A DNA stretch of 64,000 nucleotides from Spironucleus salmonicida. Lineage: Eukaryota. The translations under genes and the position numbers were made by a program. The stretch spans positions 248,001-312,000 of the forward strand of contig NC_090596.1 of the NCBI RefSeq assembly GCF_000497125.1, written 5' to 3'. The notes beneath the pieces are model-generated. The model did no database searches. It was not told the origin of the DNA and worked only from the letters and a program-made list of their open reading frames with translations. Below are positions 2,940 through 60,783 of the stretch, piece by piece. Position 1 is the first letter of the stretch. Each line of letters begins with the position of its first letter.

Positions 2940-5900
2940 TCATTTCCAGCCTTTCCTCTACAAACTTCTGGCCAGTATGTTGCAACCCCAATTCGTGCCA
3001 TCTTTGTGTCGTTTGTCAATGACTTCTCTAACTAAAAGTTAGACGTTCGAAAAAGTGCACCTAGCGAGTGCCTAAAGTATCGCTGAAAAGCAGTATGTTT
3101 CGATAGATGGTCCACTGGCGAAAATGGACATTTATACAACGACCCATCTTGCAGAATCTTAGGGTGCTAAATCACGAAGAAGCTAGTAGATTATCTAGAA
3201 ACAATAAGTCTCTTCAACTTTCTTTCTGTCTAATTGGGTATAAAAATGGTATTTCACTAAATAGTTCAAAAATGGAGCTATTTAGTCGATTTTTAAGGGA
3301 TTAAAAACGGTGTGCTTCAAGCTTGCAACAACATCTTTTACATAGTGATCACTATCTTTTTTAAGAACCATTTCTAAATCTTTGTTGATGTCAGCCATAA
3401 TAAGATCTTCTATAAAATCTGTCTCAGGAATTGCCAGCATTCCATTAACTTCATCTGTCTTTGGATAATTCTTTCTAGAGTTTAATTGACCGCGTAATTA
3501 TTAAGCATTTTAATGTAAAGATTCAGAAATAATAAGTCTGTATTTATTCATAAATATAGGAAAATCGTTACTAATAATGATTATTAAGCGCATTAAACAG
3601 CGAATATATTATTTTAAATATGGTTAATTTGTGAGTTGTATATTTTAGAAATAAGAATGTGTATAGTTGCAAAATGCTTAAAGCAACATGAAATACGGTT
3701 GGAAAGTTGGTGAATTTTCATAAAACATATGCTTTAGAAAGTTAAGATTTTAGCTTTTAGTGTAATATTAGTTAAAAGAATAATCAGGCTAGTAATGTAA
3801 CATAGCACCCTGTAATGTTGGCTCGGACATCAAAGACATAAATATCGCGAAAAACTCAGGATGATACTATGGCCGATACGCATATAGAGATTAAGCTATA
3901 ATAGTAGAAAATTAAATTCGATGATATCTGTTAAATCTAGTTGTTTAAGATAAAAATATCCTTTAAATAGTAAATAGTAATTTATGAGTAAACTTCATCG
4001 CTAAAATATTGAAAAATGTTTATTATGGTAATTACTCTCCATTATCAATTTATTCAATAAGTCTTTGCTCACTTTACAATTAGCATATAGTCTAAATAGT
4101 AATAGGAGTTTATTAAACACTTTTCTAGACCAAATCATAGTTTCTAAGTTACTTCATAATTTATATCTTTGTCAGGGGACAAATTTAGATAGATTAGAAT
4201 ACTGAATATAATTATTAGATTCTGTAAAGAAGTAATGCTAGATATTATTCTTTTTATTTTCCTCTAACCTCAAATTCTGGGATAGATTATATAAGATAAT
4301 AGAAAAACTAACCTAGTTAATCAATTTATACAGATTTTTTGTTAATAATGAGAGCCTTATAATCACAGTCATTATATATAGTATAGAAAGTAGATATAAG
4401 CAAAGAATCAAAAATTTAAGATGCTACATCGTCTGAAAGCATCAAACCAACTTAATGAATCTAAAATACACAACTAGAAATAAGTGGAATTTATTATTAT
4501 GTAAGATTAATTTTATCATCAACAATAGCTGAAAATTATTTAAAACATTCCATTATATGATTATCTAACATAGTAAATGAATTTTATGATTTTTTCTAAA
4601 CCTCTACATTAACATACTTAGCAAACTTTTTCACACTATCCTCAATTTCACTTAATTTAACTGAAATTTACTGGCCAGTAATAAAATCAGAATATTTTAA
4701 TTAAAATCCGAAATCGCATAAATTATCACCGGAAAAATTCCGCTATGCTAAAAATCCTTGATTTATATGCTACTAATAGAATAAAAATTCTTAGATAATA
4801 TCAGGTAATTCTAAAGATGTAGAATATATAGAAATATCCTAAGTAGTATTGACAGTGGCTGCCAAAGTTTCCATTGATGAGACATACAATTCTTCAATTA
4901 ATTATACAGTTTATTTAAAAAGATATGAAGATATAGATTTATGACATTACGCTAATTCTTTTGTGTTATTAAAGCAAACTTCACATAAAGTTTCGGCAGC
5001 AGCAGTAATTGTAAGCACACATTTATTTTATACTGCAACTGGTGGAATTTCAGAATTATTTGTAAAAGATAAAGGATAAAGGATGGCCTACTAAATAGTA
5101 TCATAGAAAAGCCTATCAGCATCCTCTGGCTTCAAGACATGATTTTGTATAATACCAATATAATAACCACTTAAACAATCATGCACAGAATAATACTTAG
5201 AGTCATGTAAGTTTAAAATATCAGAATAAACGGATAAATCTATAATTTACTAAAATCCAACTTAAATCTATTATTTCAATTCTATTGCTGAACTGCTATT
5301 ATCTTAGAAAACTCGATATAATACTTAGTAAATTGCAAACGGGAGTGATTTTAGAATGGAGATTTAATTTGAACAAGATGCGGGGGTGCTACAAATATGT
5401 CTAACAATCTGCTAGTGCTCTTCTTTGAAATAATCATGTATTTTAGAGTCAGGTGGGAACAGGCTTAAAAATTCATTTTTAGCTTTAACCTAATAACTAC
5501 TGATATTAGCTTATAGTTATTCTGCAATCTTGAAATCTGTTGTAAAATTAATAGATTTCAGTTACCCTTCTTTAGCTCCCTTTTAATAATCGTCATAATT
5601 AATTTGACAAGATTTAATTTAATTAATAGTATTAGAGTCAAAAGTGATTCCGGAAAATGTCCAATTAAATAGCGCTGTCATAAAAGATTTACAATTATTA
5701 GGATTTATTCTCCACATATAGTCAAATACAATTCTTAATGAATGCAGCTAAGCATTTAAAGGGTGATTAGTCTATATATTATACATAGAAATTTTAGACG
5801 ATGAGTATGAAGACTATGCTAATTAATTTTATGATGAATAAATTGACTTACATAATCTAGCCAAAAGCTTAATAGAATCATCTTAAGAAAGACTTTTTGA

Positions 5901-8900
5901 CAAAGGTAAATAGTTAGATAAATAGTTAATGGTAGCGCCTTAATTGTAAATAAATTTGATTACTTAATTTTTATGCAGTGTGCTAGTAAACTAATATCTA
6001 GATATAAATTACTGTAATTATTCCTATATGCTTAAATCATTAGATGTTCCAAGCTATTTACTAAGGAATTACTAAGCTTGTACCTAATTTTAAGAAATTT
6101 ATGGTTACTACATCCAGTTGCAGCAAATAAGTAGTTCTGGATAGTTAATCATGGTATAGGGATAAATTGCTGTGTTATCATGTTAGGTTACTTCAATCCA
6201 TGTATTTTTATCATGATGGTTAGATTTTATTGAAAAAATATGATAAAAGTCATCAACTAGCCTATTAACTTATTCATCAAATGATAACTCGTTTGACCCA
6301 TTATGTATTGCACGGTCATCAAAAGGTGTTGTAGTCTCCTCCATATCGTAAGTTTCAGCTAATTAAAAGTCAAACTTATAATTCAGTTTATTATTATTAC
6401 TAATTTTTATTTATTATAACTGTTACGCTTATTTCTAAACGTACAATATTACTTATTCTGCAGCCATTAAACTGAGTTATTTAAGTATTTTTGATGTGAT
6501 TAACTCTTGTAATTAGAGAGGAACGTACTCTTCATATTAAAACCTATTCAATATTTCCTATAGAATTTCTTATGAAAAAGCTGAAAGTGAAGCATTTCTG
6601 ATTAAAACACTAGTTATCCGATTTGTACACATTGAGAAAGCTTTTTTATATCGAGAATCAGTTTGCTTAAGTCCAAAATTATTTAAAAGTGCTTCCGCAC
6701 ATTCTCGAGCATTATCAACATATTTAGACCATATTTACTAAATTCTACCTTATCTGTAACAGATTTGCACACTATCGTAATTCCACAATAACTCCTGATT
6801 TTCCTAAATTAGCGCAGATGTTAAATTAAGAGGTACCTCATTAACTTCTGCTTTCATGAGTAAACTTAAATTTTCTTCTTATTATAATATTTCAGGCAAA
6901 ATTATATATTTTTTATTTTACTTATTAACAGTTTCTCCGGTTAATTCGTGTATTTCCTCAGAATAAAATTCATTAACAACGCTATCTATATCAGAATATA
7001 ATAAATATTATTCTAAATTTTGAATATTTTCGTTAGCAATCTTCGCACTTTCTCTACAATTCTTACAAAAAAATCCATGCTCACATTTTATCATATCTAT
7101 CGTGATAGATAATAAGGTAAGCAAATAACCGTTTTAACTTGTGATTATTTAACTCATTTGAAGGATTGTCCGCGAAAATTAACTGAAAAATTATGTTAAT
7201 ATAGGCTTTGTTTCACAAGTTTCTGCAATCTTTGAGAGTGCTAAATAATCAAAATCTTCGATTCGTAGCCCTTTAAGAGGTGCAAATTCTAGACGAAATT
7301 ATGAGGCACCAAGCCATGTGGCCAATTGAAATACTTTCTGTCGGCGCTAAATGAGCTGTTCAGAAGTTAATGTTTATACAGAATATAGCAGCCTAGAAAC
7401 AGTTAAGATACATTACTTTGTGATTAAAAATAACAGTTCGGGTGAGTCTAAAGTAATGAAAAATTAGAAAAACAAGGCTAGTGGCATGTTTTATTGATCT
7501 GAATTTTTAACTTAAAACTAAATGATCCAATTTGTTACGAAAAATTCAGCAAATTATTATTTATCATTTTCAAAAATCAGTTTACACTCTTTGATTTACT
7601 GTTGTCTAACTGATTCATTTATTGCTGATTAGGACAGAATTAATTAGAGTTTTTGTTGATAGATTTCATAATAAACACCGGTTTCTTATTGAGAAGATGG
7701 CAAAAGAACCATAAGAGACTTATTTTTGCGTAGTAGTTAGGCAATTTCTTCGTCTAAAAAGTTAGATTAGAGTAGTTTATCAGCATTTTACAGGAGTTTA
7801 TTGTTAGAATCTTTTCTTAGCTTAACTTCATTCTAAATATTTTATAATATTAATGATTGTTTAAATGTACATTGTTAGGTTAAAATAAAAGCGTATTATT
7901 AAGTATCTAAATCAACTTGTTAGAAAGCATCTAACATGCTTAATGATTCAAAAAATGAGAAATATGTAGTAGAAGAGTTTATAACTTTAGTTGTCTATTT
8001 TATCTTTTTAACACTTAAAATAATAGTCTTAATAAGTAATTTTGATAAAGATAGATCTGATTATGATTTAGAAGATGCTATTAATAACAGTACATTTAAA
8101 AACTTAGGATGCAAAACATCAAAAAATAATGAATTGATAAATAGTTCGGCTGAAAGAATGTGTAATTCTTATTAAGTTTAAATAAGCTATTCTTGGTTTA
8201 AATCTTTATTATGCTATTAGATCACCTTAATATCATTAATTCCATTGATAATTAAATTAAGTAGCACAAAACTGACAGATTTTAAGGTTTATTATTATTT
8301 TAAAATAGTCTTCTATTCTTCTACAAATTATTGATAGTTCTTATTAATACATAATTAAGAAAATTGATTACTAGCGTTTTAGCTTGTAATTTGATCAGTT
8401 ACCTAAAGATCTTGTGCCATCACCATATCAATTTTAGGATATGCTAGTTTGATGATAGATATTGCTGCACTAAATAACTTAGTCATTCTAGACTGTAACT
8501 CTTATTACGAAATATTTTTAAAGTAACCTTCATAATAAACTAACGTTCTATAAAATGAGTAAACAACATCTTCATTAGGTTGAATATCAGAAACGGTTAC
8601 AAATCTAAGTTGCGTTTCTAAACTCACAGATTAGGTGTTCTATTATGAAAGTTAAATGATGTCATGAAGAGCACATGAAATACTTGGTGTATAATCTGAA
8701 TGAAGATAATGAAAATCTGATAATTCCAAATTTTTATTTTATATTTATAAATATTTATATACTTTCTTAACTATAAACACGCATAAAGCTTCCGCAAAAG
8801 AAACACCAATCTTCATAAGTTATCCATTTAAAAATGTTGTCATTGATATTTTATTTTATTGTGCTGCAATAGACCCCACATCCAAAGTGAAATAAAAATT

Positions 8901-10532
8901 ATCCTCCGAAATTAGAACTAAATCTAAGCATTGATACTCAATGGCGTGTTCTAACATCTTACTAGTTAAAGCTGGCTAAAATTACCAAACAACTTGATAG
9001 ATATACGAAAAATACTCAGACTATATTAAAGATTAGGTTAAAATCGGATTAAGTACTGTTTTTGTAGATTTGTTATAGTATTTGTTCAACGCTAAAGCTA
9101 AAATTGATTTAAGGAAGTAAGATGGTTAAAGTTACAATATAGTTAGTGCTAGTTATTCAGCACATTTAGCTGTAGGATCACCGTATCCTTTTTGAGTGAG
9201 CTCTTATGAGAGTTGAAGCTAAGTTTAATTAGGCATATTTATATGCAATAAATACTCAATTTACGGTGAGAAATCTTCATATAAAAGTTTTAATGTTTTG
9301 ATTAATGGAATGCATCTCCATACAAATGCTTATGTAAGAACGACAGCTTGCTGCTGGTTAAGCATAAGCTAATCTAAATCAGAAATTAAATACTATTGTG
9401 AAAAGCTGCAATTTCTTTTACTAGAATTTTCACCAAATTTTTAATCTAAAATATTGCCACAAATGTCCAATGCATATTAAAATGGACATGAAAACTCGTT
9501 ATTAGTTAAATTGGGAGGATATATAAGTTATACTGTTTCTAATCTTCCAAAATTAACATAAAATGCATACTATTAAAGAAGTAAAAATTGTTTAAGGGTT
9601 TCCTAAGATAATCCTTACTTTAACTAAAGATAAACTTTAGTATTGAAAGCTCTGGTAAGTGTTTGTGCTAATGTCAAAAATCCAATAAGATATGTGAACT
9701 TAACAAATTTGTTGAGCTCAAATCCACCAAAAATAAGATCAATAAGACTTTCCTTTTGTTCATTAGAGCACTTAGAACAAAAACAAGTACGCTAATTTTA
9801 AGCCAATAAAGCTTTAATTGTAAGTTCAAGTAATTATTATGGAGAATAATAAATTTCATCCATTTTCATATTTTAAATACATTAAATAACAGTTATTCCT
9901 TTACTTTTCAGGTATTAAAAAACATCCACAATTTTCCAGTCCATGGCTTCTTCAAATAATTCAATATTAAATTCTTTCTCTATCTAGGATACCGAGTAAC
10001 GGACCTTATTTACTGATTATGGAGTTGCAAAAAATTATAATAACTATCCGCCATCCTCTATTGTTGGCTATGGACAGATCTATTCAAATGTTGCTGTAAA
10101 TGTTCCATTAAACCCAATTTTAAAAAGTTTATTTAACAATTCAGAGTTAAAACTTTTCTACAATGTTTATTTTATTTTAATGAAAATTTCTGAAAAGTTT
10201 ATAAGCTAGATAGATTTATCTTAGTTAATTTATAATTAGTTTGCAATAAATTCTAATTGAGAATCTGACATTTTTTCCATTTTTATTACCTCGAAAAATT
10301 AATTCAAATAAGACGTCTATGGTAACCTCTATTGTAGATATTTAGATAATTATTAACTTGTAAACATGAGATGTGGTCTGCTTAATAATTAACAAGATTT
10401 AATGACTTAGATCGAAACCTAAACAAAACTTGAAAACTATAAATTCAAGTCTATCCCCCTAAAACTTTCCTATAGAAGTCTAATATTTTATGATTCAAGT
10501 GCTTAAAAAATATGTTACTAATGCAACGACAT
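2940..10532 (-). CDS. NOT1: CCR4-NOT scaffold subunit NOT1 (~2530 aa)
   Basis: Same frame at all checked points. FYFTLDVGSIAAQQNKISMTTFL~[38 protein letters not shown]~RPTKAPGFVYAWLELIS; LIIIISNDFPIFM...AQQLR~LLVLLHDFPEFL...CIQLR; NWGCNIL~PWGLLI. Confidence 0.85.
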
Positions 10533-46057: not shown

Positions 46058-47065
46058 TCATTTTTTTACAGCAAAAATTACACTTATATTATCGCTGCTC
46101 TTAAGCAAATAAGCTGCACATACAAAAGCCTATGCTACTGTATGTTCAAACTGTAATTATTCTTTGTAATTGCAAGACATTTTAGCTATATCCGTCATAT
46201 CGATTTTTTTATAAAAGAAATCAATAACTATTTATGAATTTCTTCTTGTAGAAGTGTTAATATTTTATAATAGACACTCAATAGCCTCTCTTACATCTTC
46301 ATTATCCATTACATCAAATAATCCATCACATGCAATTAAAATCCAATCAGTACTCAATTCATCTATTTCTATAATATCAATTAGACCACAAACACCATAA
46401 ATTTTCATAGCTTTATCACCTATTGCTCTACTTACAGCTAATTGAGCATTTACTCGACCATTCATGACAATTCCACCGTAGCGTTCAATTCTATCTTTTT
46501 CAAATGGGTCTGTAGGTTTATGATCACATGTCGTGTTGTTTTAAGTAAGAACTCTAGCATCTCCTGCATTGCAAAGATAGAATTTAGAATTTTTCTTTAT
46601 TATGAACGCGAGTGTAGCTCCACTTTCTGAACATATATCAGGAAGGTCATGATCTAGGTTTAATATACCCAATTTTAAATCAGTTATTACATTACCAGTT
46701 TCATAATACTCCACATATTGTAATATCATACTTGCTCCTATACTTGCAGTTTCTGAACCTCCATGACCGTCTAAAATAACTAATATTTTATTGGTAATAA
46801 CATGTGAATCTTCGTTAGAATTTCTTCTCCCAATTGCAGTATGATGTCCTACGGACATTTACAAATCTTCAAGAGATTATTATGGCTATATTGAAATTTA
46901 CTTATTAATAGTATCTAATTCACATTGAAGTTTATTTTTTATTTATTCAGATCTCTCAACTTATAATTTTTTCCTACCATATACTTCATGCAATTTTTTA
47001 TATAATTATTCAGTCCTTTTTGCTTATTATTCAAATTCAGACTCATTGTAAAATTTGATTTCCAT
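46058..47065 (-). CDS. Protein phosphatase 2C (335 aa)
   Basis: GRRNSNEDSH, LDGHGG, SGAT, NAGDAR, DHKP, LAVSRAIGD, ACDGLFDV, SSDNIS. Confidence 0.92.
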
Positions 47066-47894
47066 TTTTTAATAATAAAAATTATTAATACGATATAAAA
47101 ACTTTAAAAGTTAAATTAATAGAATATACAAACTTAAATATAATATATATCTTATTACTTAGTTTAAGCTTTCTAATTAAACGGGTTAAAATTATATATG
47201 CATACAATGTATTATATATTTAATTTCCTTTGACCTAATAAAAATACTTTTATTTTGATTCTTATATCAATGTTGTCTTCAAAGTATTTTGGTTATAGTA
47301 AGAAACCATTTATTACTCAATAAAAAATATCAATGATAATGAATAACTCTGTATTAATGTTCTGTTATATGTTATTATCACTAAATTAATGTAATTGTTA
47401 TTAGTAATTTATCTAAATTTCTTTTTGATGATAATATATATTCAAACTTTATTATTACTGATTTTACTCCCCGACTAAAATGAGAGATAGATCAAGGTTA
47501 TCTTATATTAGAGTGTGTTCTAAATAGAATAAAAAGGTGCTGCTCAAAATCCAATTTAAATTTAAATAGTAATCAATCTGTAATGTATGTATTGTATATG
47601 ACATAAATAAAATTTATGCTACTAATATTACAACAATATTAGTGATTTATTCCTAGTTTTAATAAGCGTAAAAATATATAATAAATGATATATTTGTAAG
47701 TAATATGGTCAATAAAGTGAAAGTTATTTGATACTCTCAAAATTGGTAATATTTATGATGCTAAAATACTAATCTACTAATAACTTCACTGAGAATATTA
47801 ACATTTTAATAAGCTGCAATTTTGCTATTGTTTGCTTCCTCAAAAAAAGACTAACATATTATAACATATTAATATAATATATTGCTTTTATAAA

Positions 47895-52761: not shown

Positions 52762-53967
52762 ATGACATACATTATTAATTACTCTTAAGATTTAATTCAT
52801 TAATAGCGAGCTTCCAAAATAATAATAAATACCTAGCAAAGCCTATAAAATAAAAGAATGTTATTCAATAACTTTGTACAATGTTAAAACATGAATTACT
52901 CTACTGATTCAATTAGACATCCTTATATTTAAGCTGATACTTCATCAGCATTTTATAGAAATGGGTCCACAGCTCTTAATGCATAAGAGCATTATCTTTT
53001 TATAACACTTTTTTATTGGTATGGATCAGATTTTTATATATGGTAGCAATTTATTGAAAATACATTATTACCATAATCAGCTATAATCAACTATTATAAC
53101 CTCAACTATCCTCAATTAGTAAAACTATCTAAAGATGTAGAATATTTTGCAAATTCTCTAAGAGGATAGCAGATATTATAATATTACTCCTAATTTGATT
53201 TCTTTACTTCAATTACTCAAGTATAAACACCAATATTATCTAATTTTGGTTCAGTGTGTAGAGTAATGGAGAATAAACTATCATAATTTACAGGTAAAAT
53301 TGTCAACCCAATATTGATTAAAGATTATAATTTTGATCTTCCAAATGGTTTACTGATTATAACACCAGAAGAAAGAATGTTTGTTAATATTTTAAAATCA
53401 CCTATTGCAGGACTTAATAGAGTAAATAATGATAGATCTATTGACTTTGAGGTTCAACCAAATTCTTAATTTTTTTCTGATCAGAAGTAAAAATTGTAAG
53501 TTTTATAATTATAAGAAGTAAAATAACGTTTGTAAATATAAAATAAAATAGTAACAGAAATATTTAACGCATAGAATGATCAATAGTTAGGAATAATAAG
53601 ATTATTAGATAAACTAATAAAAAATTCATCAACTTAATAATAAGTATAGATTCTATAGGAACTAATGGATATTACAGAAAACAATTAAGATGTTTAATAG
53701 TAAGTGAAAAAGTTAAGAATTGCATTAGGGAAACCTGTTATGTCAGCATGGGCAAAATATTTATATGACAAATTAATAAGCAGTTAAAATATGAATAAGA
53801 TTATAAATATATCATAGTTCAGTTTTCTTCAGTAATATCATTAAGGCAGACTCAATCGTAATTTTTTTGATGGGCCAGTTTTAGCTACAGAACACTTATT
53901 AGATGTACCACACATTCCTGAATTATCGGAATTGCAATTGGCGATTGAATTATATTTTAGTGATTGA
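52762..53967 (+). CDS. SANT-like domain protein (401 aa)
   Basis: QEHYLFITLFYWYGSDFYIWQQF...AIINYY resembles a SANT domain; ends AGTGATTGA. Confidence 0.6.
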
Positions 53968-54041
53968 TTATAAGTTATTATCTTTTCTTTTCTAACCTTA
54001 AAATATGATATATAACAAACTTATTTTTATTTAAATTAAAA

Positions 54042-54578
54042 ATGTCAATCAGGTAGTATTAAAAATTTACTACAGATGATGAAGATACTTTAATTAATAT
54101 GGTTAATGATTAATTAAAAAAATCAACAAGAATTAACTGGAAGCCAATTGCCGCTACTTTGAGTAAAACTCCACGTTAATGTTATGATTTTTATATTATC
54201 AGAAAATAGTCGAGTAATAAAACTGAAAAGCATGATTGGTAGTTAGAAGAGATTAGTTAACTATTAGATGCAGTTTAAACTCATGGAACCAAATGGGATA
54301 CTATTAAAACCGAATACTTTCCAAATCTTACATAGAATTAGTTAAGAAACAAATACTATCACACAACAAAATCATCTAGGGCGAATTCATCATAAAATTT
54401 AGCATAGGGAATAGGATCATCTGTTGAAATTAACTAACGTACATTATCATTGAATGATTTTTTCAATGCATAGTTTACTTAGTAAAACAATATGATATAT
54501 ACTACCCAATCAACAGTTCCTGAAAATCTAGATGTATTTGGGGAAAATGTTAATGATATGTGGGACGATGAATATTGA
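54042..54578 (+). CDS. Two-repeat Myb DNA-binding protein (178 aa)
   Basis: FTTDDEDTL...INWKPIAATLSKTPRQCYDFY and WQLEEISQLLDAVQTHGTKWDTIKTEYFPNLTQNQLRNKYY. Confidence 0.88.
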
Positions 54579-54913
54579 ATATTTTTACTTTATCTAAAAT
54601 TGAGTATATTTTTAATCTTAACTCTATATTTTTAGTCTGCTTATCATATTAATTATACAAAGCCAAGTAAATAATTTACTAATACCAACAGTACATAATG
54701 AACTTATAATTAAAAATCAAAGTCTATTTCAAGTAAAAAATGTAATTATTCTTATGTAAATTTAGTAAAATATTATTTAACATAATTTCAAATAAATAAC
54801 TTATATTTAACAAAATTATAACAATAAAGTATGATGCTTCCATAAATTAATAAGCTATTATATTAATAACAACTAATCCAAGATTTATTACTCCAAATGC
54901 TATCTTCACTCCT

Positions 54914-55846
54914 TCATAACCTACCTTTTTCAAATTCATGGGACATAACAATTCCCCACAACCTCTCTTCTTCATCTCCCTAAACCACCTAAAATTCTAC
55001 CAGTTTTTCGTTAAACATATGTTTACAGTGCAATAAGCTTACACATGCTGGTGAATCTCTGCATACAACTACAAACACTCCGTCTAAATATTCACAAAAA
55101 ACAAATTAACAAATTTGACAAAACCACTTCATGAGAAGTTCTTTCGTACCATTTTCAATCTTTGCGCTTACAACGCAATTTTTAGGAAATGAATTCTTTA
55201 AGTCATCCATTCTCAAAACTATTAGATTTTTGTTGATTTCAGCTTTACATGATAACATTCTTTCTACATAGTTATTGTCACCAAGAACACGAGATTTACC
55301 CCATGTTTTAGATGAAAAGAAAGCGGTTTATTCTATGATTTTTCCCCGATCCCAACTAGGTTATGAACCAAAAAATTCATATACTTTATATGCTTCTTCT
55401 CTAGAAGCAAATGAAAGTTTTGCAATGAACTTAGCTTCGCCGAAAACTCTAGTTTTAATAACTTAAGTGAATTTTGGGAAGATATTTGTCTGCTTAGCAA
55501 TAAACCACTTAATATCTTTGTTGATAGTTGGAATATATGAGCTTTCCATTGATGAAATTAAAAGTGTTTGGGATATAAGTGAGTTTTCATTTTTGATTTG
55601 ATTTACTCGTGTGATAAAAGATTAACATAGCGATAATTGAACGATTTTAGATAGATTAACAGCTTTAATAAGTTAAACTAATGTAACATGATGTTTTGAA
55701 AAATATGGTATTTAAATAATTTCTTCTAAGGGAACTTCCCCTTTAAAGCATTCATATAACTTCATATTTTCTGGTTAAAGAGTCAATTTTAGATCTGAAA
55801 AGTAGTCTGATAGAAAAGTTTCTATTTATTTAGTTTTTAAGGGCAT
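54914..55846 (-). CDS. La-motif/RRM/xRRM RNA-binding protein, La/LARP7-like (310 aa)
   Basis: DYFSD...EVPLEEII...LIKAVNLSKIVQLS...ITR (La motif); RRM-like middle; FPKNCVV...FQVVQGDEEERLWGIV (xRRM helix 3). Confidence 0.65.
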
Positions 55847-55924
55847 TAAAGTGGAGGGAGAAAAGAATAATTATTTAAACCCTATTATTATATAATACTA
55901 AAACTTATATACAGCAGATTCTTA

Positions 55925-58474
55925 ATGATTGGTAGAAGAAAAACTATGTTTAGCGTAATTTCAGACGGGTAAGTCATTTTTAGTGGACACAAATATTTAA
56001 TACTATAAAATAAAGACTTAATTCATGTGTATAATGAAAAATTTATTAGCATATTTTAGCTTTCTACAACAGATAGAGTTATTTCAACCTGTGAACTATT
56101 TATTAGGAATCAATCATTAATATTTACTCTTTCTTCTGGAAAAGTAGTATTAATATAAGACGTGTAAGATGAACTGATATTTCAATTATCAAAACCACAT
56201 ATTTAGACAGCTTCATTTAATCTTCTAATATAAGAGAATAAAGTATAAATAAATTATATTGCTGAAAATATTCTATATAGGTAGGAGTATAAGTTTATCT
56301 AAGGACATCTATCAGATGTTATTTAATAACCAGATCTTAATCTTTAACTCTAAATTTCTTAATAGATCTGTTTTAATGATATTACATTAATTCTTGCGGA
56401 TTCTAAACTATACTCACTTAAAGATTAATTATTGTACATAGATATCGCTGAATAATTATTTATTCAGTCAGATAATTAAGTTTTATATACCAACAATTAG
56501 AATATAAATCAAATAACAATCTAAAATAACTAAAATAGCATAATGTAGGTTTAAAATTTAGAGTTTCTACTTGATGGTAATATATATTATTATAATTAGT
56601 ATATTATCATGATATAATCGAACATCATAGCATTTTTCGATTTTCCAACTGGAACATTCATCTATTCTGCAATGTTTACCGGCTAATTTTTTGTATTTAT
56701 AAATTAACTTTTTGTTAAGCAAAATTCTATAATAGAATAATTTTATCTAAATTTTTTTGATATAAACGAATATAATAAATAGCATCTTTTATTCTAAAAA
56801 TCTAACAAGGCTAATAAGAGTTTCATGTTAAATAAGGGACTAATAGATGGATATAAATAATATAGTATAATTTGGTTAAGTTAAATTGCATTTACTTCTT
56901 TACCTTAAAAATAAATAGTTAAGAAAGTAGAAGAATCAATCGAAATTTCTAAAATTTCGTTACTACACTTAATAATTGGTGGGATAACTCAAAAAGCTGA
57001 TAAATAATAGCGGTTTACAATTAAACTTTAAGATTTAATGTAAGAACTATAAATTGCTCTATAAATAATATCTGATAGTAATAACAACGAATATTATTTC
57101 TTAGGAAGTATAATACTGTTAATTTCATTAACTACTATTTGTGCGCTATAGAAGCTGGAATATGGCAATGTACAGTATACACAGGTATTTCAAAAATAAC
57201 TTGAGTAAGAAATTATTTCCATGTAAGTTTAAAATTTGCTTTTTAAACTGGCAAAATTCACTTATTTCAATTGTAAAATTAGGAAAAGCTAAGAGATGTA
57301 AGACCTTATTAGAATGATTAATTAGTAATTCAAATAAATTTCTAATGATAAGTAATAAAACTAAAACTTGATAAGATTAGATTTAAACAATTTAAATAAT
57401 TTTCTTTTATGTTAGAGTTAATTAAAAACTAACAATCCAAATTTTAATAAAGAAAATCTTAATATTTATAAAAATTACGTAAATAATAATTTTAATGACA
57501 ATGTATAGTGTTTTTATGAATCTATTTTTAGGTCTAATACTGCTTCTGAATATTTTAACTAAAATCTTAGTGATGATATATATACTTTATATCCAGAGTT
57601 AGATGTGTATAGATAATTTGAAAATAAGTCAGTTTTCTTTAATTATAAACTAGATGATATAAATTTTGAAATATTCAATGCTAGTATTTAAACAAATTTT
57701 TTACAATTAATTGAATAGCTTTATTTTAATAAAATCCTTATTTAAAGAAAATTTAAAATTATACTCACACCATAATAAGAGTAATTCATAGAGTTAATAT
57801 TAATATAAATGAAATAATTTAATCACATAATTTCATAGTTTTATATTGATAATAAAGAAGATATTCAGATATTTAACAATTAAATATGTGAAATTTTAAT
57901 TAGTTAAAGACCATTTTTGACCAAAGAATTATATAATTAACTTAACTCGAAAAACGAATCAAAATTACCTGGTAAAAATATAATGGATAAAGATTTATAA
58001 GTATCTAGATAATAACCTTAATAAACTATATTAAACAAGTAATAATAATATTTAAATAATCTTGAGAGTATTGAAATAGAGTATATCAAGATGATATCTT
58101 CTAATAGTTAAGAAACAGCAGATAGTTATATAAGTTTAATTACTAACGCAGACTTTATATTATTTAATTAAATCTAATAGCCATCTTTTTAAGGTTTAAA
58201 GTAATACTAAAAACTAAAATCTTATTGTATCAATATAATATCTAAAGTTAATAAAGTTGAAGATATATACCTTAATATATTTACTTAATTAGATTGTAAT
58301 TTTGAAGATTATTATTTACTATTGCAATAGTGTTTTTTAAATATATGTAATTTATTCATGTTTTATGAGCCATAGTTAAATAACTATGAATATGACTAGG
58401 ACCTAATTATTAAAAAAGCTTCTAATATACTAAAAATATCTTTAGGTTTCAATTAAATTTTAAAGTATGAGTGA
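55925..58474 (+). CDS. Large hypothetical protein (849 aa), beta-rich N-terminus and helical C-terminus
   Basis: Frame checked 55925-57120; ends GAGTGA; no family recognised. Confidence 0.65.
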
Positions 58475-58519: not shown

Positions 58520-59020
58520 ATGAATTTAGAAATAGTTCAACCTACATTTCAACTATAATTATATAATTTTCTTATATATGAGACATTAGTACCTGTTAAA
58601 ATGAATTCTACTATAAATTATTAAACATAATCACTTTCATAAACACATTCTAATTTAAGAGTAGGGTCAATTCTTTAACTTACTTTAGCAGAAGCACTTG
58701 AATTACAAAAACATCATTTAGCTATTATTTAATTACCTGAATTTTTGACAATCAAGTATTTATAAAATATACTCGAAGCAGAATAATTATCTACCAAATT
58801 AGCACCATTGCCATAATGTTATTTTTCATCATCACAAATATTGCTATCTCAGTTTCAAAGTCGTCCTGAAATTTTTGATCTTACTCTTATTGATGAATTA
58901 TTTTCGCTGCGGCATTAAATAAGATAACATAGACAGTAAAAGTTAAATGAAGGGGAATTAACTAATGCTACATTGGATGAGTTATAAATGATTTCTTATA
59001 AATAACAAATTGAAGAGTGA
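58520..59020 (+). CDS. PSF2: GINS complex subunit PSF2 (166 aa)
   Basis: NFLIYETLVPV...LTLAEALELQKHHLAIIQLPEFLTIKYLQNILEAE...LAPLPQCYF...LTNATLDEL aligns with Psf2 ([41 protein letters not shown]). Confidence 0.75.
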
Positions 59021-59648: not shown

Positions 59649-59742
59649 TTATAAATATATATTAGTATATCATATTAATATATATTATTTATGATTTATG
59701 ATTTAGAATATATCATTAATAATAAATTTTTTAAAACATAAA

Positions 59743-60783
59743 ATGGATATTAAGTTTTACAACAAAGACGACTAAATTAAATAATTAATCCGCGTAGATA
59801 TCCTGATAGCATAGGCGAAGTAACTCAAAATTGAGAAACTACGTCAATTAGAAACCCTTTTAATGACAAAAAAACTTTTAATATAACAAAACGGTGCACT
59901 GACGACAAGCCTAAAACAGTTTAAATTATCAGTAAACCAGATTCCTGAATTTACATTTGGTACATCCTCCGCTAAGGGGCGTCGGCCAACTAATGAGGAC
60001 ACGCATTTAGTTTGTGAAAGTCCGTTTTTTGCCGCAATTTTTGATGGCCATGGTGGTGCAGAAATCGCTGAACTAGCTGAGAACGCACTCCATGACTACT
60101 TATAGGAAGATAATTCTATCCCTGGCCTTCATGGGATACAGCTAAAACTCCTGTAATTCGACCAGCTTCTGATCAATATCTGCCCGGAATCTGGAGCAAC
60201 AATGGGGTTCACCTGCTTCCTAGGTAAGAATCTGGTGATTGGAAACATCGGCGATGTGCGTGTTCTTACAGACTTCAACGATACCACCGATCACAAGCCA
60301 GATAGCGAGAGAGATCGTCTGGCCAACTATTCGAGTTTAGTCATAAGGAAACGCGTAAATGGTGTTTTGGCAACATCTAGGAGTTTAGGTGATAGGGCTA
60401 TGAAGACTTAAGGTATTATTGGGTTGGCAGATGTTCAGATAGTGCGGGATTTCAAATTTGTATTTATAGGATGCGACGGCGTGTTTGATGTATTGACGAA
60501 TGAACAAATAAGGAGTATAGTTAAAATGGAGAAAGATAGTACAGACAGAGTTGTAAAGGCCGCTATATGTTTTGCAGAATGTTTGATCGAAGACGGCGAT
60601 TCAATTGTAGAGGAGATTCGCGGGGTTTAATAGTATGAGATTGACGAAGAATATTGTGAAAAAATACTAAAAGAAGATTAGTTAGAAACGAGGCTGTGCA
60701 AAGCTATTATACGGATTGCATTTAGGATGGGTAGCTAGGATAATATTTCATGCATGTTATTGATTATGCAAAAGCACGAGTGA
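59743..60783 (+). CDS. Protein phosphatase 2C (346 aa)
   Basis: GRRPTNEDTH, FDGHGG, SGAT, NIGDVR, DHKP, LATSRSLGD, GCDGVFDV, SQDNIS; ends GAGTGA. Confidence 0.92.

What the first reader, a model, noticed from the sequence alone, without database searches (positions are those of the whole stretch)
54914..55846. La-motif + RRM + xRRM protein resembling LARP7/p65/Pof8
Seen: N-terminal La-motif pattern, an RRM-like middle, and a C-terminal domain starting FPKNCVV and ending FQVVQGDEEERLWGIV, like LARP7 LEILSGDHEQRYWQKI. Established: xRRM proteins chaperone telomerase RNA (Tetrahymena p65, S. pombe Pof8), 7SK and U6. Several La-motif residues look diverged and the usual YW is LW. Inference: a handle for finding an undescribed Pol III RNP such as telomerase RNA or U6 in this lineage. 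It could instead be a highly derived genuine La.
Basis: partly seen in the sequence, partly recalled or inferred. Interest (0 to 1): 0.7.

Follow-up and report, generated by a model that had tools for sequence, protein, structure and literature searches.

The report
Cryptic La-family RNA-binding protein, diplomonad
This expressed 310-residue gene of a Spironucleus-type fish parasite most likely encodes a very diverged member of the La family of small-RNA chaperones, one of several such genes in that species, and could help find small RNAs (telomerase RNA, U6) that are still unknown in this lineage.

Summary
On the minus strand, 54914-55846 is a 310-codon frame that is open only if TAA/TAG are read as Gln. 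The quoted motifs are there. Contigs of three probable RNA runs cover just this gene.

The La + RRM + xRRM layout is supported only by prediction. All ten nearest clusters to the ESM Atlas model, and to its residues 1-95 alone (TM 0.72-0.81), carry the La motif. Pfam gives only a sub-threshold RRM_3/xRRM hit (E 0.031, 14.8 bits against a 22.9 cut-off) and no La or RRM_1 hit. No relative appeared among 1.84 billion representatives. Both AlphaFold runs failed.

The window's gene order fits the published Spironucleus salmonicida annotation. A supplementary table there lists six other genes with the La-type xRRM domain, and one of them also has a detectable La motif.

I therefore read this gene as a further, cryptic La-family paralogue, not the canonical La. 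Membership of LARP7 is not shown. It is a new member of a known kind, of moderate interest. The telomerase or U6 idea remains open but is shared with at least six paralogues.

The parts
54914..55846 (-). Coding sequence of the 310-aa protein (P0001), including the TGA stop at 54914-54916; no intron
   Evidence: open only under code 6, 11 TAA/TAG read as Gln. (RNA-type contigs colinear with the DNA, no joints).
55571..55846 (-). Residues 1-92: predicted La motif (winged helix), cryptic at sequence level; starts with Q7-I-E and holds G36-E-V-P-L-E-E
   Evidence: the Atlas model of residues 1-95 has TM 0.72-0.81 to La-bearing clusters in 10 of 10 rows, and the aligned part is named PF05383 in 6. 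The best feature hits are PF05383 clusters (0.90, 0.89). Against: no Pfam La hit and only noise in PDB. Borders are approximate.
55292..55570 (-). Residues 93-185: predicted RRM1 of the La module (atypical; no RNP1/RNP2 consensus)
   Evidence: in structure rows 1, 7 and 9 the aligned part is PF00076 RRM_1, and rows 1 and 9 meet the naming bar; no RNP1/RNP2 pattern anywhere in the protein. Against: no Pfam RRM_1 hit. Borders are inferred by eye.
55190..55291 (-). Residues 186-219: short linker between the La module and the C-terminal domain
   Evidence: Inferred from the domain borders. Its length (about 35-40 residues) is the basis for calling the spacer La-like (criteria).
54917..55189 (-). 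Residues 220-310: xRRM-like C-terminal domain that ends the protein
   Evidence: Pfam RRM_3 PF08777, E 0.095 (whole protein) and 0.031 (piece), 14.8 bits against a 22.9 cut-off, residues 269-301 on profile 55-87 of 102; row 5 has RRM_3 as the aligned part, under the naming bar.
55082..55090 (-). Y253-L254-D255: the only [YW]-x-D in the protein; candidate RNP3 of an xRRM
   Evidence: (regex), with the motif definition from Basu et al.. Its placement on strand beta2 rests only on low-confidence models.
55058..55060 (-). R263: candidate conserved Arg of strand beta3
   Evidence: Y-x-D followed by an R 6-12 residues later arises in 659 of 20,000 shuffles of the C-terminal 115 residues.
54917..54976 (-). 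Residues 291-310 (DEEERLWGIVMSHEFEKGRL): candidate helix alpha3; L296-W297 stands where xRRMs have Y-W; no basic GK/R-rich tail follows
   Evidence: sequence; role of the alpha3 Tyr. The helix itself is not shown: the AF2 models are unusable.
54892..54913 (-). Very short 3' untranslated stretch; AGTGA at 54906-54910 (minus strand); RNA-type contigs end 16-22 nt after the stop
   Evidence: Xu et al. 2014 describe AGTGA at or near the TGA stop and a poly(A) tail about 14 bp downstream in S. salmonicida.

Best explanation
The gene encodes a very diverged La-family RNA-binding protein. It has a cryptic La motif (about residues 1-92), an atypical RRM1 (about 93-185) and, after a short linker, an xRRM-like domain that ends the protein (about 220-310). 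It is most likely a lineage-specific paralogue within an expanded diplomonad La/xRRM family, not the canonical La. The inferred mechanism follows. It acts in the nucleus as a chaperone or stabiliser of one or a few small structured RNAs. The C-terminal domain grips a stem with unpaired bases through the side of its sheet (Y253-x-D255, R263, the following helix). The degenerate La module either holds a 3' end in a non-canonical way or mainly serves as a scaffold, as proposed for fission-yeast Pof8. Shown: the ORF, its probable expression, and the sub-threshold RRM_3 match. Predicted: the three folds. Inferred: the paralogue status, RNA binding, and the client RNAs.
For: The ORF is open only under code 6 and is transcribed as a discrete unit. 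ESM Atlas: the feature hits are La/RRM_1/RRM_3 clusters (best 0.91, 187 of 256 shared features), and all 10 structure rows for the whole model are La-bearing clusters (TM 0.39-0.49). Residues 1-95 alone give TM 0.72-0.81 in 10 of 10 rows, 6 of them named PF05383. Pfam's best hit of 24,736 models is RRM_3, the La/LARP7 RRM2 family, at E 0.031 on the C-terminal piece. There is a single Y-x-D in the whole protein, in the right domain, followed by Arg, and no RNP1/RNP2, which matches the xRRM definition in Basu et al.. The protein ends 10 residues after L-W with no basic tail. The published S. salmonicida table lists 6 genes with IPR014886, only 1 of them with a detectable La-type HTH. Five of the six share an orthoMCL group with Giardia 'La ribonucleoprotein' GL50803_9803. 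So xRRM genes whose La motif is not detected are the rule in that species. The window's gene order (PP2C ... Myb, two genes, GINS, hypothetical, PP2C) fits tags SS50377_14764-14772.
Against: No curated profile threshold is met: RRM_3 scores 14.8 bits against 22.9, and there is no La or RRM_1 hit even at E 10. PDB sequence searches give 0 hits or noise. No homologue was found in 1.84 billion representatives or at E up to 10 in the word-index search, so there is no alignment, no tree and no covariation. Both AlphaFold2 single-sequence models are unusable (pLDDT 32.1 and 40.1), so all the fold evidence comes from one source, the Atlas, whose own model is mediocre (pLDDT 0.63, pTM 0.45). The Atlas notes that a third of shuffled proteins also get ten same-family hits. 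The alpha3 Tyr of xRRMs is Leu here. I could not verify the invariant 3'-end-binding residues of La/LARP7. This gene's row is absent from the published table, so its link to the six paralogues is by analogy only.
Confidence: 0.6

Rival explanations
1. It is the organism's genuine La: a general chaperone that binds the UUU-3'OH ends of all new RNA polymerase III transcripts (pre-tRNAs and others), merely fast-evolving.
For: The layout LaM-RRM1-short spacer-RRM2 and the size (310 aa) resemble classical La and the 348-aa Giardia La homologue. The La motif sits at the very N-terminus. Atlas rows include 'lupus La protein' and 'la protein homolog' clusters.
Against: The published S. salmonicida table holds a different gene (SS50377_14208) with a detectable La-type HTH + RRM + xRRM, grouped with Giardia La. 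None of the six listed genes has this window's neighbours. The Pfam La profile fails here. There is no GK/R-rich basic tail, a feature of classical La in Deragon 2020.
Confidence: 0.13
2. It is a functional LARP7/p65/Pof8 analogue: a dedicated, constitutive subunit of one RNP, such as telomerase or U6, that folds that RNA through its xRRM.
For: The xRRM-like domain ends the protein, as in LARP7. Y253-x-D255 and R263 are present. The La motif is degenerate, as in Pof8. Atlas hits include LARP7 clusters. The Giardia telomerase RNA is still unknown, and U1, U4 and U6 escaped detection in Spironucleus, so client RNAs without known partners exist.
Against: The spacer is short, not long as in LARP7. 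The alpha3 Tyr is Leu. Nothing links this gene to TERT or to any RNA. At least six paralogues are equally good candidates. No RNA gene lies in the window. LARP7 is not reported from excavates in the main text of Deragon 2020 (passages only).
Confidence: 0.12
3. It is not La-related: an orphan diplomonad protein whose resemblance comes from chance motifs and from language-model bias.
For: No curated threshold is met. There are no homologues. The AF2 models fail. The Atlas warns that shuffled proteins reach 0.9 in 4-10% of cases.
Against: Three partly separate signals point to one family: Pfam's top hit is RRM_3; the N-terminal 95 residues alone give La-motif structure matches in 10 of 10 rows, not other winged-helix families; and the order of the three domains is the La order.
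Confidence: 0.1
4. It is a cytoplasmic translation co-factor (an IRES trans-acting factor), the role reported for the Giardia La homologue with giardiavirus RNA.
For: GlLa binds the GLV IRES in vitro, and its knock-down lowered IRES activity by 40% (abstract and passages).
Against: That work concerns another protein in another genus. No similarity between the two could be measured here. Nothing here bears on localisation.
Confidence: 0.05

Closest known systems
Genuine La (La motif + RRM1 + RRM2 + basic tail), including the Giardia homologue GlLa / 'La ribonucleoprotein' GL50803_9803
   Same: The domain order is the same, the spacer before the last domain is short, the size is similar (310 against 348 aa for GlLa), and the La motif starts within the first ten residues.
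   Different: The La motif and RRM1 are invisible to Pfam. There is no GK/R-rich tail. Another gene of the matching species carries the detectable La motif. No measurable sequence similarity to any La was found in the databases searched.
LARP7 family (human Larp7, Tetrahymena p65, Euplotes p43)
   Same: It has a La module plus a C-terminal xRRM-type domain at the end of the protein. It has Y-x-D and Arg candidates and no RNP1/RNP2. LARP7 clusters are among the nearest Atlas hits.
   Different: The spacer is short, not long. Leu replaces the conserved alpha3 Tyr. The LARP7-specific RRM1 residues and the invariant 3'-end pocket are unverified. No RNA partner is known.
Pof8 (fission-yeast LARP7-like telomerase protein)
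   Same: Only the RRM2/xRRM region is recognisable by sequence, and the La module is inferred from structure prediction alone (Deragon 2020 passages). The region after beta4 is short.
   Different: Pof8's xRRM passes as homologous to p65 and Larp7 and keeps Y-W on alpha3. Here even the xRRM is sub-threshold. Pfam's fungal xRRM model PF19977 did not hit.
The six S. salmonicida genes annotated with IPR014886 'La protein, RNA-binding domain' (SS50377_10262, 10781, 14208, 15363, 15366, 15600)
   Same: The species apparently matches. In 5 of 6 the xRRM-type domain is present without a detectable La motif, and they are annotated only as 'RNA binding motif-containing protein'.
   Different: None has this window's neighbours. 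This gene's row is missing from the table.

Membership tests
La motif (Pfam PF05383, La-type winged helix) | Match to the curated profile | tested here: not met
   No PF05383 hit at E up to 10, for the whole protein or for residues 1-95 alone. HMMER filters may hide matches above E of about 0.1.
La motif (Pfam PF05383, La-type winged helix) | La-type winged-helix fold | tested here: met
   Predicted only. The Atlas model of residues 1-95 has TM 0.72-0.81 to La-bearing clusters in 10 of 10 rows, and the aligned part is named PF05383 in 6. My own AF2 model is unusable.
La / LARP7 La module | Invariant residues that hold the terminal uridine and its free 2',3'-OH (Asn50, Asp54, Phe56, Phe77 in human LARP7 numbering) and Gln41 for U-2 (PMC4381077 section read) | tested here: inconclusive
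   No tool-made alignment to La or LARP7 was possible. By eye, Q7 and an F49-S-K51 triplet could correspond, but no Asp/Phe pair stands at the expected spacing after Q7. The failure of the La profile fits partial loss.
La / LARP7 La module | RRM1 directly after the La motif | tested here: inconclusive
   Atlas structure rows 1, 7 and 9 align an RRM_1 part, and rows 1 and 9 meet the naming bar. There is no Pfam RRM_1 hit.
xRRM / RRM_3 (Pfam PF08777) | Match to the curated profile at the gathering score | tested here: not met
   13.2 bits (whole protein) and 14.8 bits (piece) against a 22.9 cut-off, E 0.095 and 0.031. It is nevertheless the best hit of the library.
xRRM / RRM_3 (Pfam PF08777) | No RNP1 and RNP2 consensus on the sheet | tested here: met
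   The regex for both consensus patterns, as given in Basu et al., finds none in the protein. The best loose RNP1 score in the C-terminal domain is 3 of 7.
xRRM / RRM_3 (Pfam PF08777) | Y/W-x-D (RNP3) on beta2 and a conserved Arg on beta3 | tested here: met
   Y253-L-D255 is the only such triplet, and R263 follows 8 residues after D255. The shuffle control gives 659 of 20,000. The strand placement rests on low-confidence models.
xRRM / RRM_3 (Pfam PF08777) | Helix alpha3 lying across the sheet, with a conserved Tyr that stacks on beta3 and bonds the RNP3 Asp | tested here: inconclusive
   Twenty residues follow beta4 (291-310), but the helix is not shown by any usable model. The Tyr position is L296, before W297.
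Genuine La | [quoted passage not shown] | tested here: not met
   The protein ends ...SHEFEKGRL ten residues after L-W. The C-terminal domain has a pI of 6.3.
Genuine La | Being the La orthologue of its genome | tested here: not met
   From literature only. In the S. salmonicida table a different gene holds the one detectable La-type HTH and groups with Giardia La. This gene's own orthogroup was not seen. No genome was available to search.
LARP7 | Much longer spacer between La module and RRM2 than in La; RRM2 close to the C-terminus (Deragon 2020) | tested here: not met
   The spacer is about 35-40 residues (La-like). The second half of the criterion is met, since the domain ends the protein.
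LARP7 | Stable subunit of 7SK or telomerase RNP | not testable with these tools
   This needs RIP/CLIP and co-purification. The diplomonad telomerase RNA is unknown.
LARP7 | Grouping with LARP7, not La, in a tree of RRM2 or the La module | not tested
   No La-family sequence could be obtained by the tools.

The most novel reading that the evidence does not exclude
This cryptic La-module/xRRM protein is the diplomonad counterpart of p65/Pof8: a dedicated assembly subunit of telomerase, or of the undetected U6 snRNP. Pulling it down would then reveal the telomerase RNA that has not been found in any diplomonad.
Probability: 0.1. Interest if true: 0.75.

Novelty: new member of a known kind. Interest (0 to 1): 0.42.

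Why it matters
Diplomonads (Giardia, Spironucleus) are so diverged that several core small RNAs are still missing. [quoted passage not shown] U1, U4 and U6 escaped detection in Spironucleus. La-family proteins with xRRM domains are the proteins that hold such RNAs in ciliates, yeast and animals. If this gene and its at least six relatives in S. salmonicida are RNA-specific chaperones, tagging them is a direct route to those RNAs. The gene also illustrates that a whole La module can drop below profile detection while its fold is still predicted, as reported for Pof8. No paper in the searched library joins 'xRRM' with 'Giardia' (0 papers).

Tried and rejected
**Homologue searches**
- The word-index search at E 0.01 and at E 10 found only the protein itself among 364 candidates of 170-543 aa.
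- phmmer over 1.84 billion representatives of all lengths found only itself at E 0.001. Relatives scoring below about 41 bits would be missed.
- A JGI metagenome scan matched 80 patterns, and none was confirmed by tblastn.
- phmmer against 609 stop-to-stop frames of the window found no paralogue.
- PDB sequence searches gave 0 hits for the whole protein. The pieces gave noise only: LC3 at E 0.66 for residues 1-95, bS6 at E 1 and rubredoxin at E 1.3 for residues 206-310.

**Structure**
- AlphaFold2 without an alignment failed on the whole protein (pLDDT 32.1) and on residues 196-310 (pLDDT 40.1).
- I therefore ran no fold search, because low-confidence models give meaningless matches.
- No complex prediction was run.

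**Genome-wide check for other La genes**
- No genome is held for this window, so the check rests on a published table only.

**Expression**
- No listed run is on record as RNA. X5-X7 are guessed to be RNA and come from one study.
- I did not rank genes by depth.

**Matching the gene to one of the six published xRRM genes by neighbours**
- None fits.
- The row for this gene (expected between SS50377_14768 and 14770) is absent from both spreadsheets searched. Two scanned PDFs could not be read.
- A search on 'Myb' gave 399 occurrences and was abandoned.
- The table calls SS50377_14770 a GINS subunit, but Pfam found no family in the 166-aa ORF that should correspond. The gene-order match is therefore good but not complete.

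**RNA genes and earlier notes**
- Rfam gave 0 matches and ARAGORN 0 tRNAs in the window.
- No earlier scan note covers this place or sequence.

**Considered and rejected**
- A ciliate origin was my first guess from code 6. I dropped it in favour of a diplomonad because of the TGA-only stops, intronless compact genes, 3' ends about 16-22 nt after the stop, and the gene-order match.

Full report
**1. What is at the coordinates**

Read with the bacterial or standard stops, the stretch 53500-57500 has one 63-codon ORF. Read with TAA/TAG as glutamine (NCBI table 6), the minus strand holds a 310-codon ORF at 54914..55846. It has 11 in-frame TAA/TAG codons and a TGA stop. Its ATG is the first in a stop-to-stop frame that reaches 55960.

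The same code opens the whole window. There are 36 ORFs of 250 codons or more. There are 37 non-overlapping ORFs of 120 codons or more, which together cover about 92% of the 64 kb at 21-36% G+C.

**2. Whose genome**

The window shows TGA-only stops, intronless tightly packed genes and very short untranslated ends. These are the features that Xu et al. 2014 (passages read) describe for Spironucleus salmonicida. That paper reports a single termination codon, 3 introns, and an AGTGA signal at or near the stop with the poly(A) tail about 14 bp downstream. Earlier notes of this scan on other pieces of the same genome also call it a Spironucleus-type diplomonad.

I tested this partly. The ORFs flanking the gene are a Myb protein on one side (54042-54578) and an 849-aa orphan on the other (55925-58474). 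Further out lie two PP2C phosphatases (46058-47203 and 59698-60783), an LRR protein and a kelch protein.

In the supplementary table of a 2019 S. salmonicida paper (PMC6397501, file 3), the tags run as follows:
- PP2C (SS50377_14764)
- hypothetical (14765)
- a missing tag
- hypothetical (14767)
- Myb (14768)
- a gap of two accession numbers
- GINS (14770)
- hypothetical (14771)
- PP2C (14772)

This order fits the window, with the present gene in the gap. One blemish remains: Pfam found nothing in the 166-aa ORF that should be the GINS subunit. The row for the present gene is absent from the spreadsheets I could search, so I did not see its published annotation.

**3. Is it expressed**

Eight public runs hold the stretch. 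Four DNA runs may be the source of the assembly. Four more, from one other study, are guessed to be RNA. I laid three of those four and one DNA run. Contigs of the three guessed-RNA runs cover 54892 or 54898 to 55828-55844. That is the ORF plus 16-22 nt after the stop. They have no joints and no differences, and they stop there, while the DNA run's contig runs straight through. The neighbouring gene lies on separate contigs. This is what a discrete, unspliced mRNA would give. It comes from one study, the RNA label is a guess, and contigs cannot show the strand.

**4. What the protein looks like**

Sequence methods say little:
- For the whole protein, Pfam gives RRM_3 (PF08777, the RRM2/xRRM family of La and LARP7) at E 0.095 and 13.2 bits, against a curated 22.9 bits. 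Residues 269-301 align to profile positions 55-87 of 102.
- On the C-terminal piece alone the hit is E 0.031 and 14.8 bits.
- Residues 1-95 and 96-205 hit nothing.
- PDB sequence searches give nothing or noise.
- No relative appears in 1.84 billion representatives, in the word-index search up to E 10, in JGI metagenomes or in the window itself.

The RRM_3 hit is below threshold, but it is the best of 24,736 models and it is the family named beforehand.

Prediction says more:
- The ESM Atlas holds this exact sequence with a mediocre model (pLDDT 0.63, pTM 0.45).
- By language-model features, the nearest clusters are La + RRM_1 + RRM_3 proteins, including La-related protein 7 (best score 0.91, 187 of 256 shared features).
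- All ten structure rows are La-bearing clusters at TM 0.39-0.49 over residues 1 to about 300. RRM_1 is named as the aligned part in rows 1, 7 and 9, and RRM_3 in row 5, below the naming bar.
- Residues 1-95 alone give TM 0.72-0.81 in ten of ten rows. All ten are La-bearing clusters, and the aligned part is named PF05383 in six. The best feature hits are PF05383 clusters at 0.90 and 0.89.

A generic winged helix would be expected to draw other winged-helix families, and it did not. The Atlas's own cautions apply: its two searches count as one source, and a third of shuffled proteins also get ten same-family hits.

My two AlphaFold2 runs without an alignment failed (pLDDT 32.1 and 40.1). I therefore have no independent model and ran no fold search.

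**5. Motif-level reading of the last domain**

Basu et al. (preprint, passages read) define the xRRM by four features:
- absence of RNP1 and RNP2
- Y/W-x-D on beta2
- a conserved Arg on beta3
- a helix alpha3 across the sheet, with a conserved Tyr and charged or aromatic residues at its end

In this protein neither RNP consensus occurs anywhere. The only [YW]-x-D is Y253-L-D255, and R263 follows eight residues later. This combination arises in 659 of 20,000 shuffles of the domain. Twenty residues follow the last strand and then the protein ends. So the sequence features are mostly met, and the helix is unproven.

**6. La or LARP7**

Deragon 2020 (passages read) separates the two in three ways:
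- a much longer spacer between the La module and RRM2 in LARP7
- an RRM2 nearer the C-terminus in LARP7
- a GK/R-rich tail in classical La

Here the spacer is short (La-like), the domain ends the protein (LARP7-like), and there is no basic tail. The criteria split.

The structure paper on human LARP7 (section read) lists residues invariant in La and LARP7 that hold the terminal uridine and its free hydroxyls. By eye, Q7 and F49-S-K51 may correspond, but no Asp/Phe pair sits at the expected spacing. The failure of the La profile fits a partly lost pocket. This point is inconclusive.

**7. The wider family**

Giardia has a La homologue of 348 residues. It has a recognisable La domain in its first 100 residues and binds the giardiavirus IRES.

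The 2019 S. salmonicida table lists six genes with IPR014886 ('La protein, RNA-binding domain'). Only one of them (SS50377_14208) also has the La-type HTH and an RRM signature. Five of the six share an orthoMCL group with Giardia's 'La ribonucleoprotein', and one is a singleton. None of the six has this window's neighbours.

The species therefore appears to carry an expanded set of xRRM genes whose La motifs mostly escape detection. The present gene looks like one more, even more diverged. The stored file is marked as cut, so six is a lower bound.

**8. Best explanation and rivals**

- **Best (0.6):** a cryptic La-family paralogue (La motif, atypical RRM1, xRRM-like end) acting as a chaperone or stabiliser of one or a few small structured RNAs. 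Its xRRM is the specific grip and its La module is degenerate.
- **Rivals:**
  - the general La (0.13)
  - a dedicated LARP7-like subunit of telomerase or U6 (0.12)
  - an unrelated orphan (0.1)
  - a cytoplasmic IRES co-factor like GlLa (0.05)

Nothing here links the gene to any RNA. The window holds no Rfam match and no tRNA.

**9. Novelty and value**

I found no paper joining 'xRRM' with 'Giardia' (0 papers). 'La ribonucleoprotein' with 'Giardia' gave one unrelated paper. Giardia telomerase RNA is unidentified (review conclusion read), and Spironucleus U1, U4 and U6 were not found.

The gene is a new, very diverged member of a known family. Its value lies in the family as a set of baits for missing RNAs, not in this gene alone. 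Supplements I could not see (this gene's own row, two scanned PDFs) may already give it an annotation.

Noticed in passing
window 54917-55261 (-), residues 196-310: Eight of the protein's ten cysteines lie in the C-terminal domain, including C243-x2-C246 and C251, C262, C268, C274 with H273/H276. Only noise-level hits point to metal binding (Pfam zf-C3HC4_3 at E 0.13; rubredoxin in PDB at E 1.3). This could be a metal site on the xRRM or just the cysteine richness of diplomonad proteins.
   Followed up: no
window 46058-47203 (-) and 59698-60783 (+): Two PP2C-type phosphatase genes (Pfam E 1e-31 and 4e-27) bracket a block of about nine genes that contains the La-like gene. The same pair appears eight locus tags apart in the published S. 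salmonicida table.
   Followed up: partly
window 54905-54916 (-): The TGA stop is preceded by A, not by the AG reported as typical for the species. An AGTGA lies 3 nt after the stop, and the RNA-type contigs end 16-22 nt after the stop. The poly(A) signal may be displaced downstream in this gene.
   Followed up: partly
window 55131-55601 (+): A 156-codon ORF with only two TAA/TAG lies antisense inside the La-like gene. With TGA as the only stop such shadow ORFs are common, as Xu et al. 2014 note. The contigs cannot tell the strand.
   Followed up: no
window 1-64000: ORFs of 120 codons or more cover about 92% of the window. This is well above the 72% coding share published for the species, and the G+C (21-36%) is mostly below the published 33.4% mean. 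The region is an unusually gene-dense, AT-rich stretch.
   Followed up: no
window 58520-59020 (+): This 166-aa ORF sits where the published table places a 'GINS complex subunit Sld5/Psf2' gene, yet Pfam finds no family at E 0.01. It is another example of a core protein below profile detection in this genome.
   Followed up: partly
window 2940-10532 (-): A 2530-codon intronless ORF with 232 TAA/TAG codons. I did not examine it.
   Followed up: no
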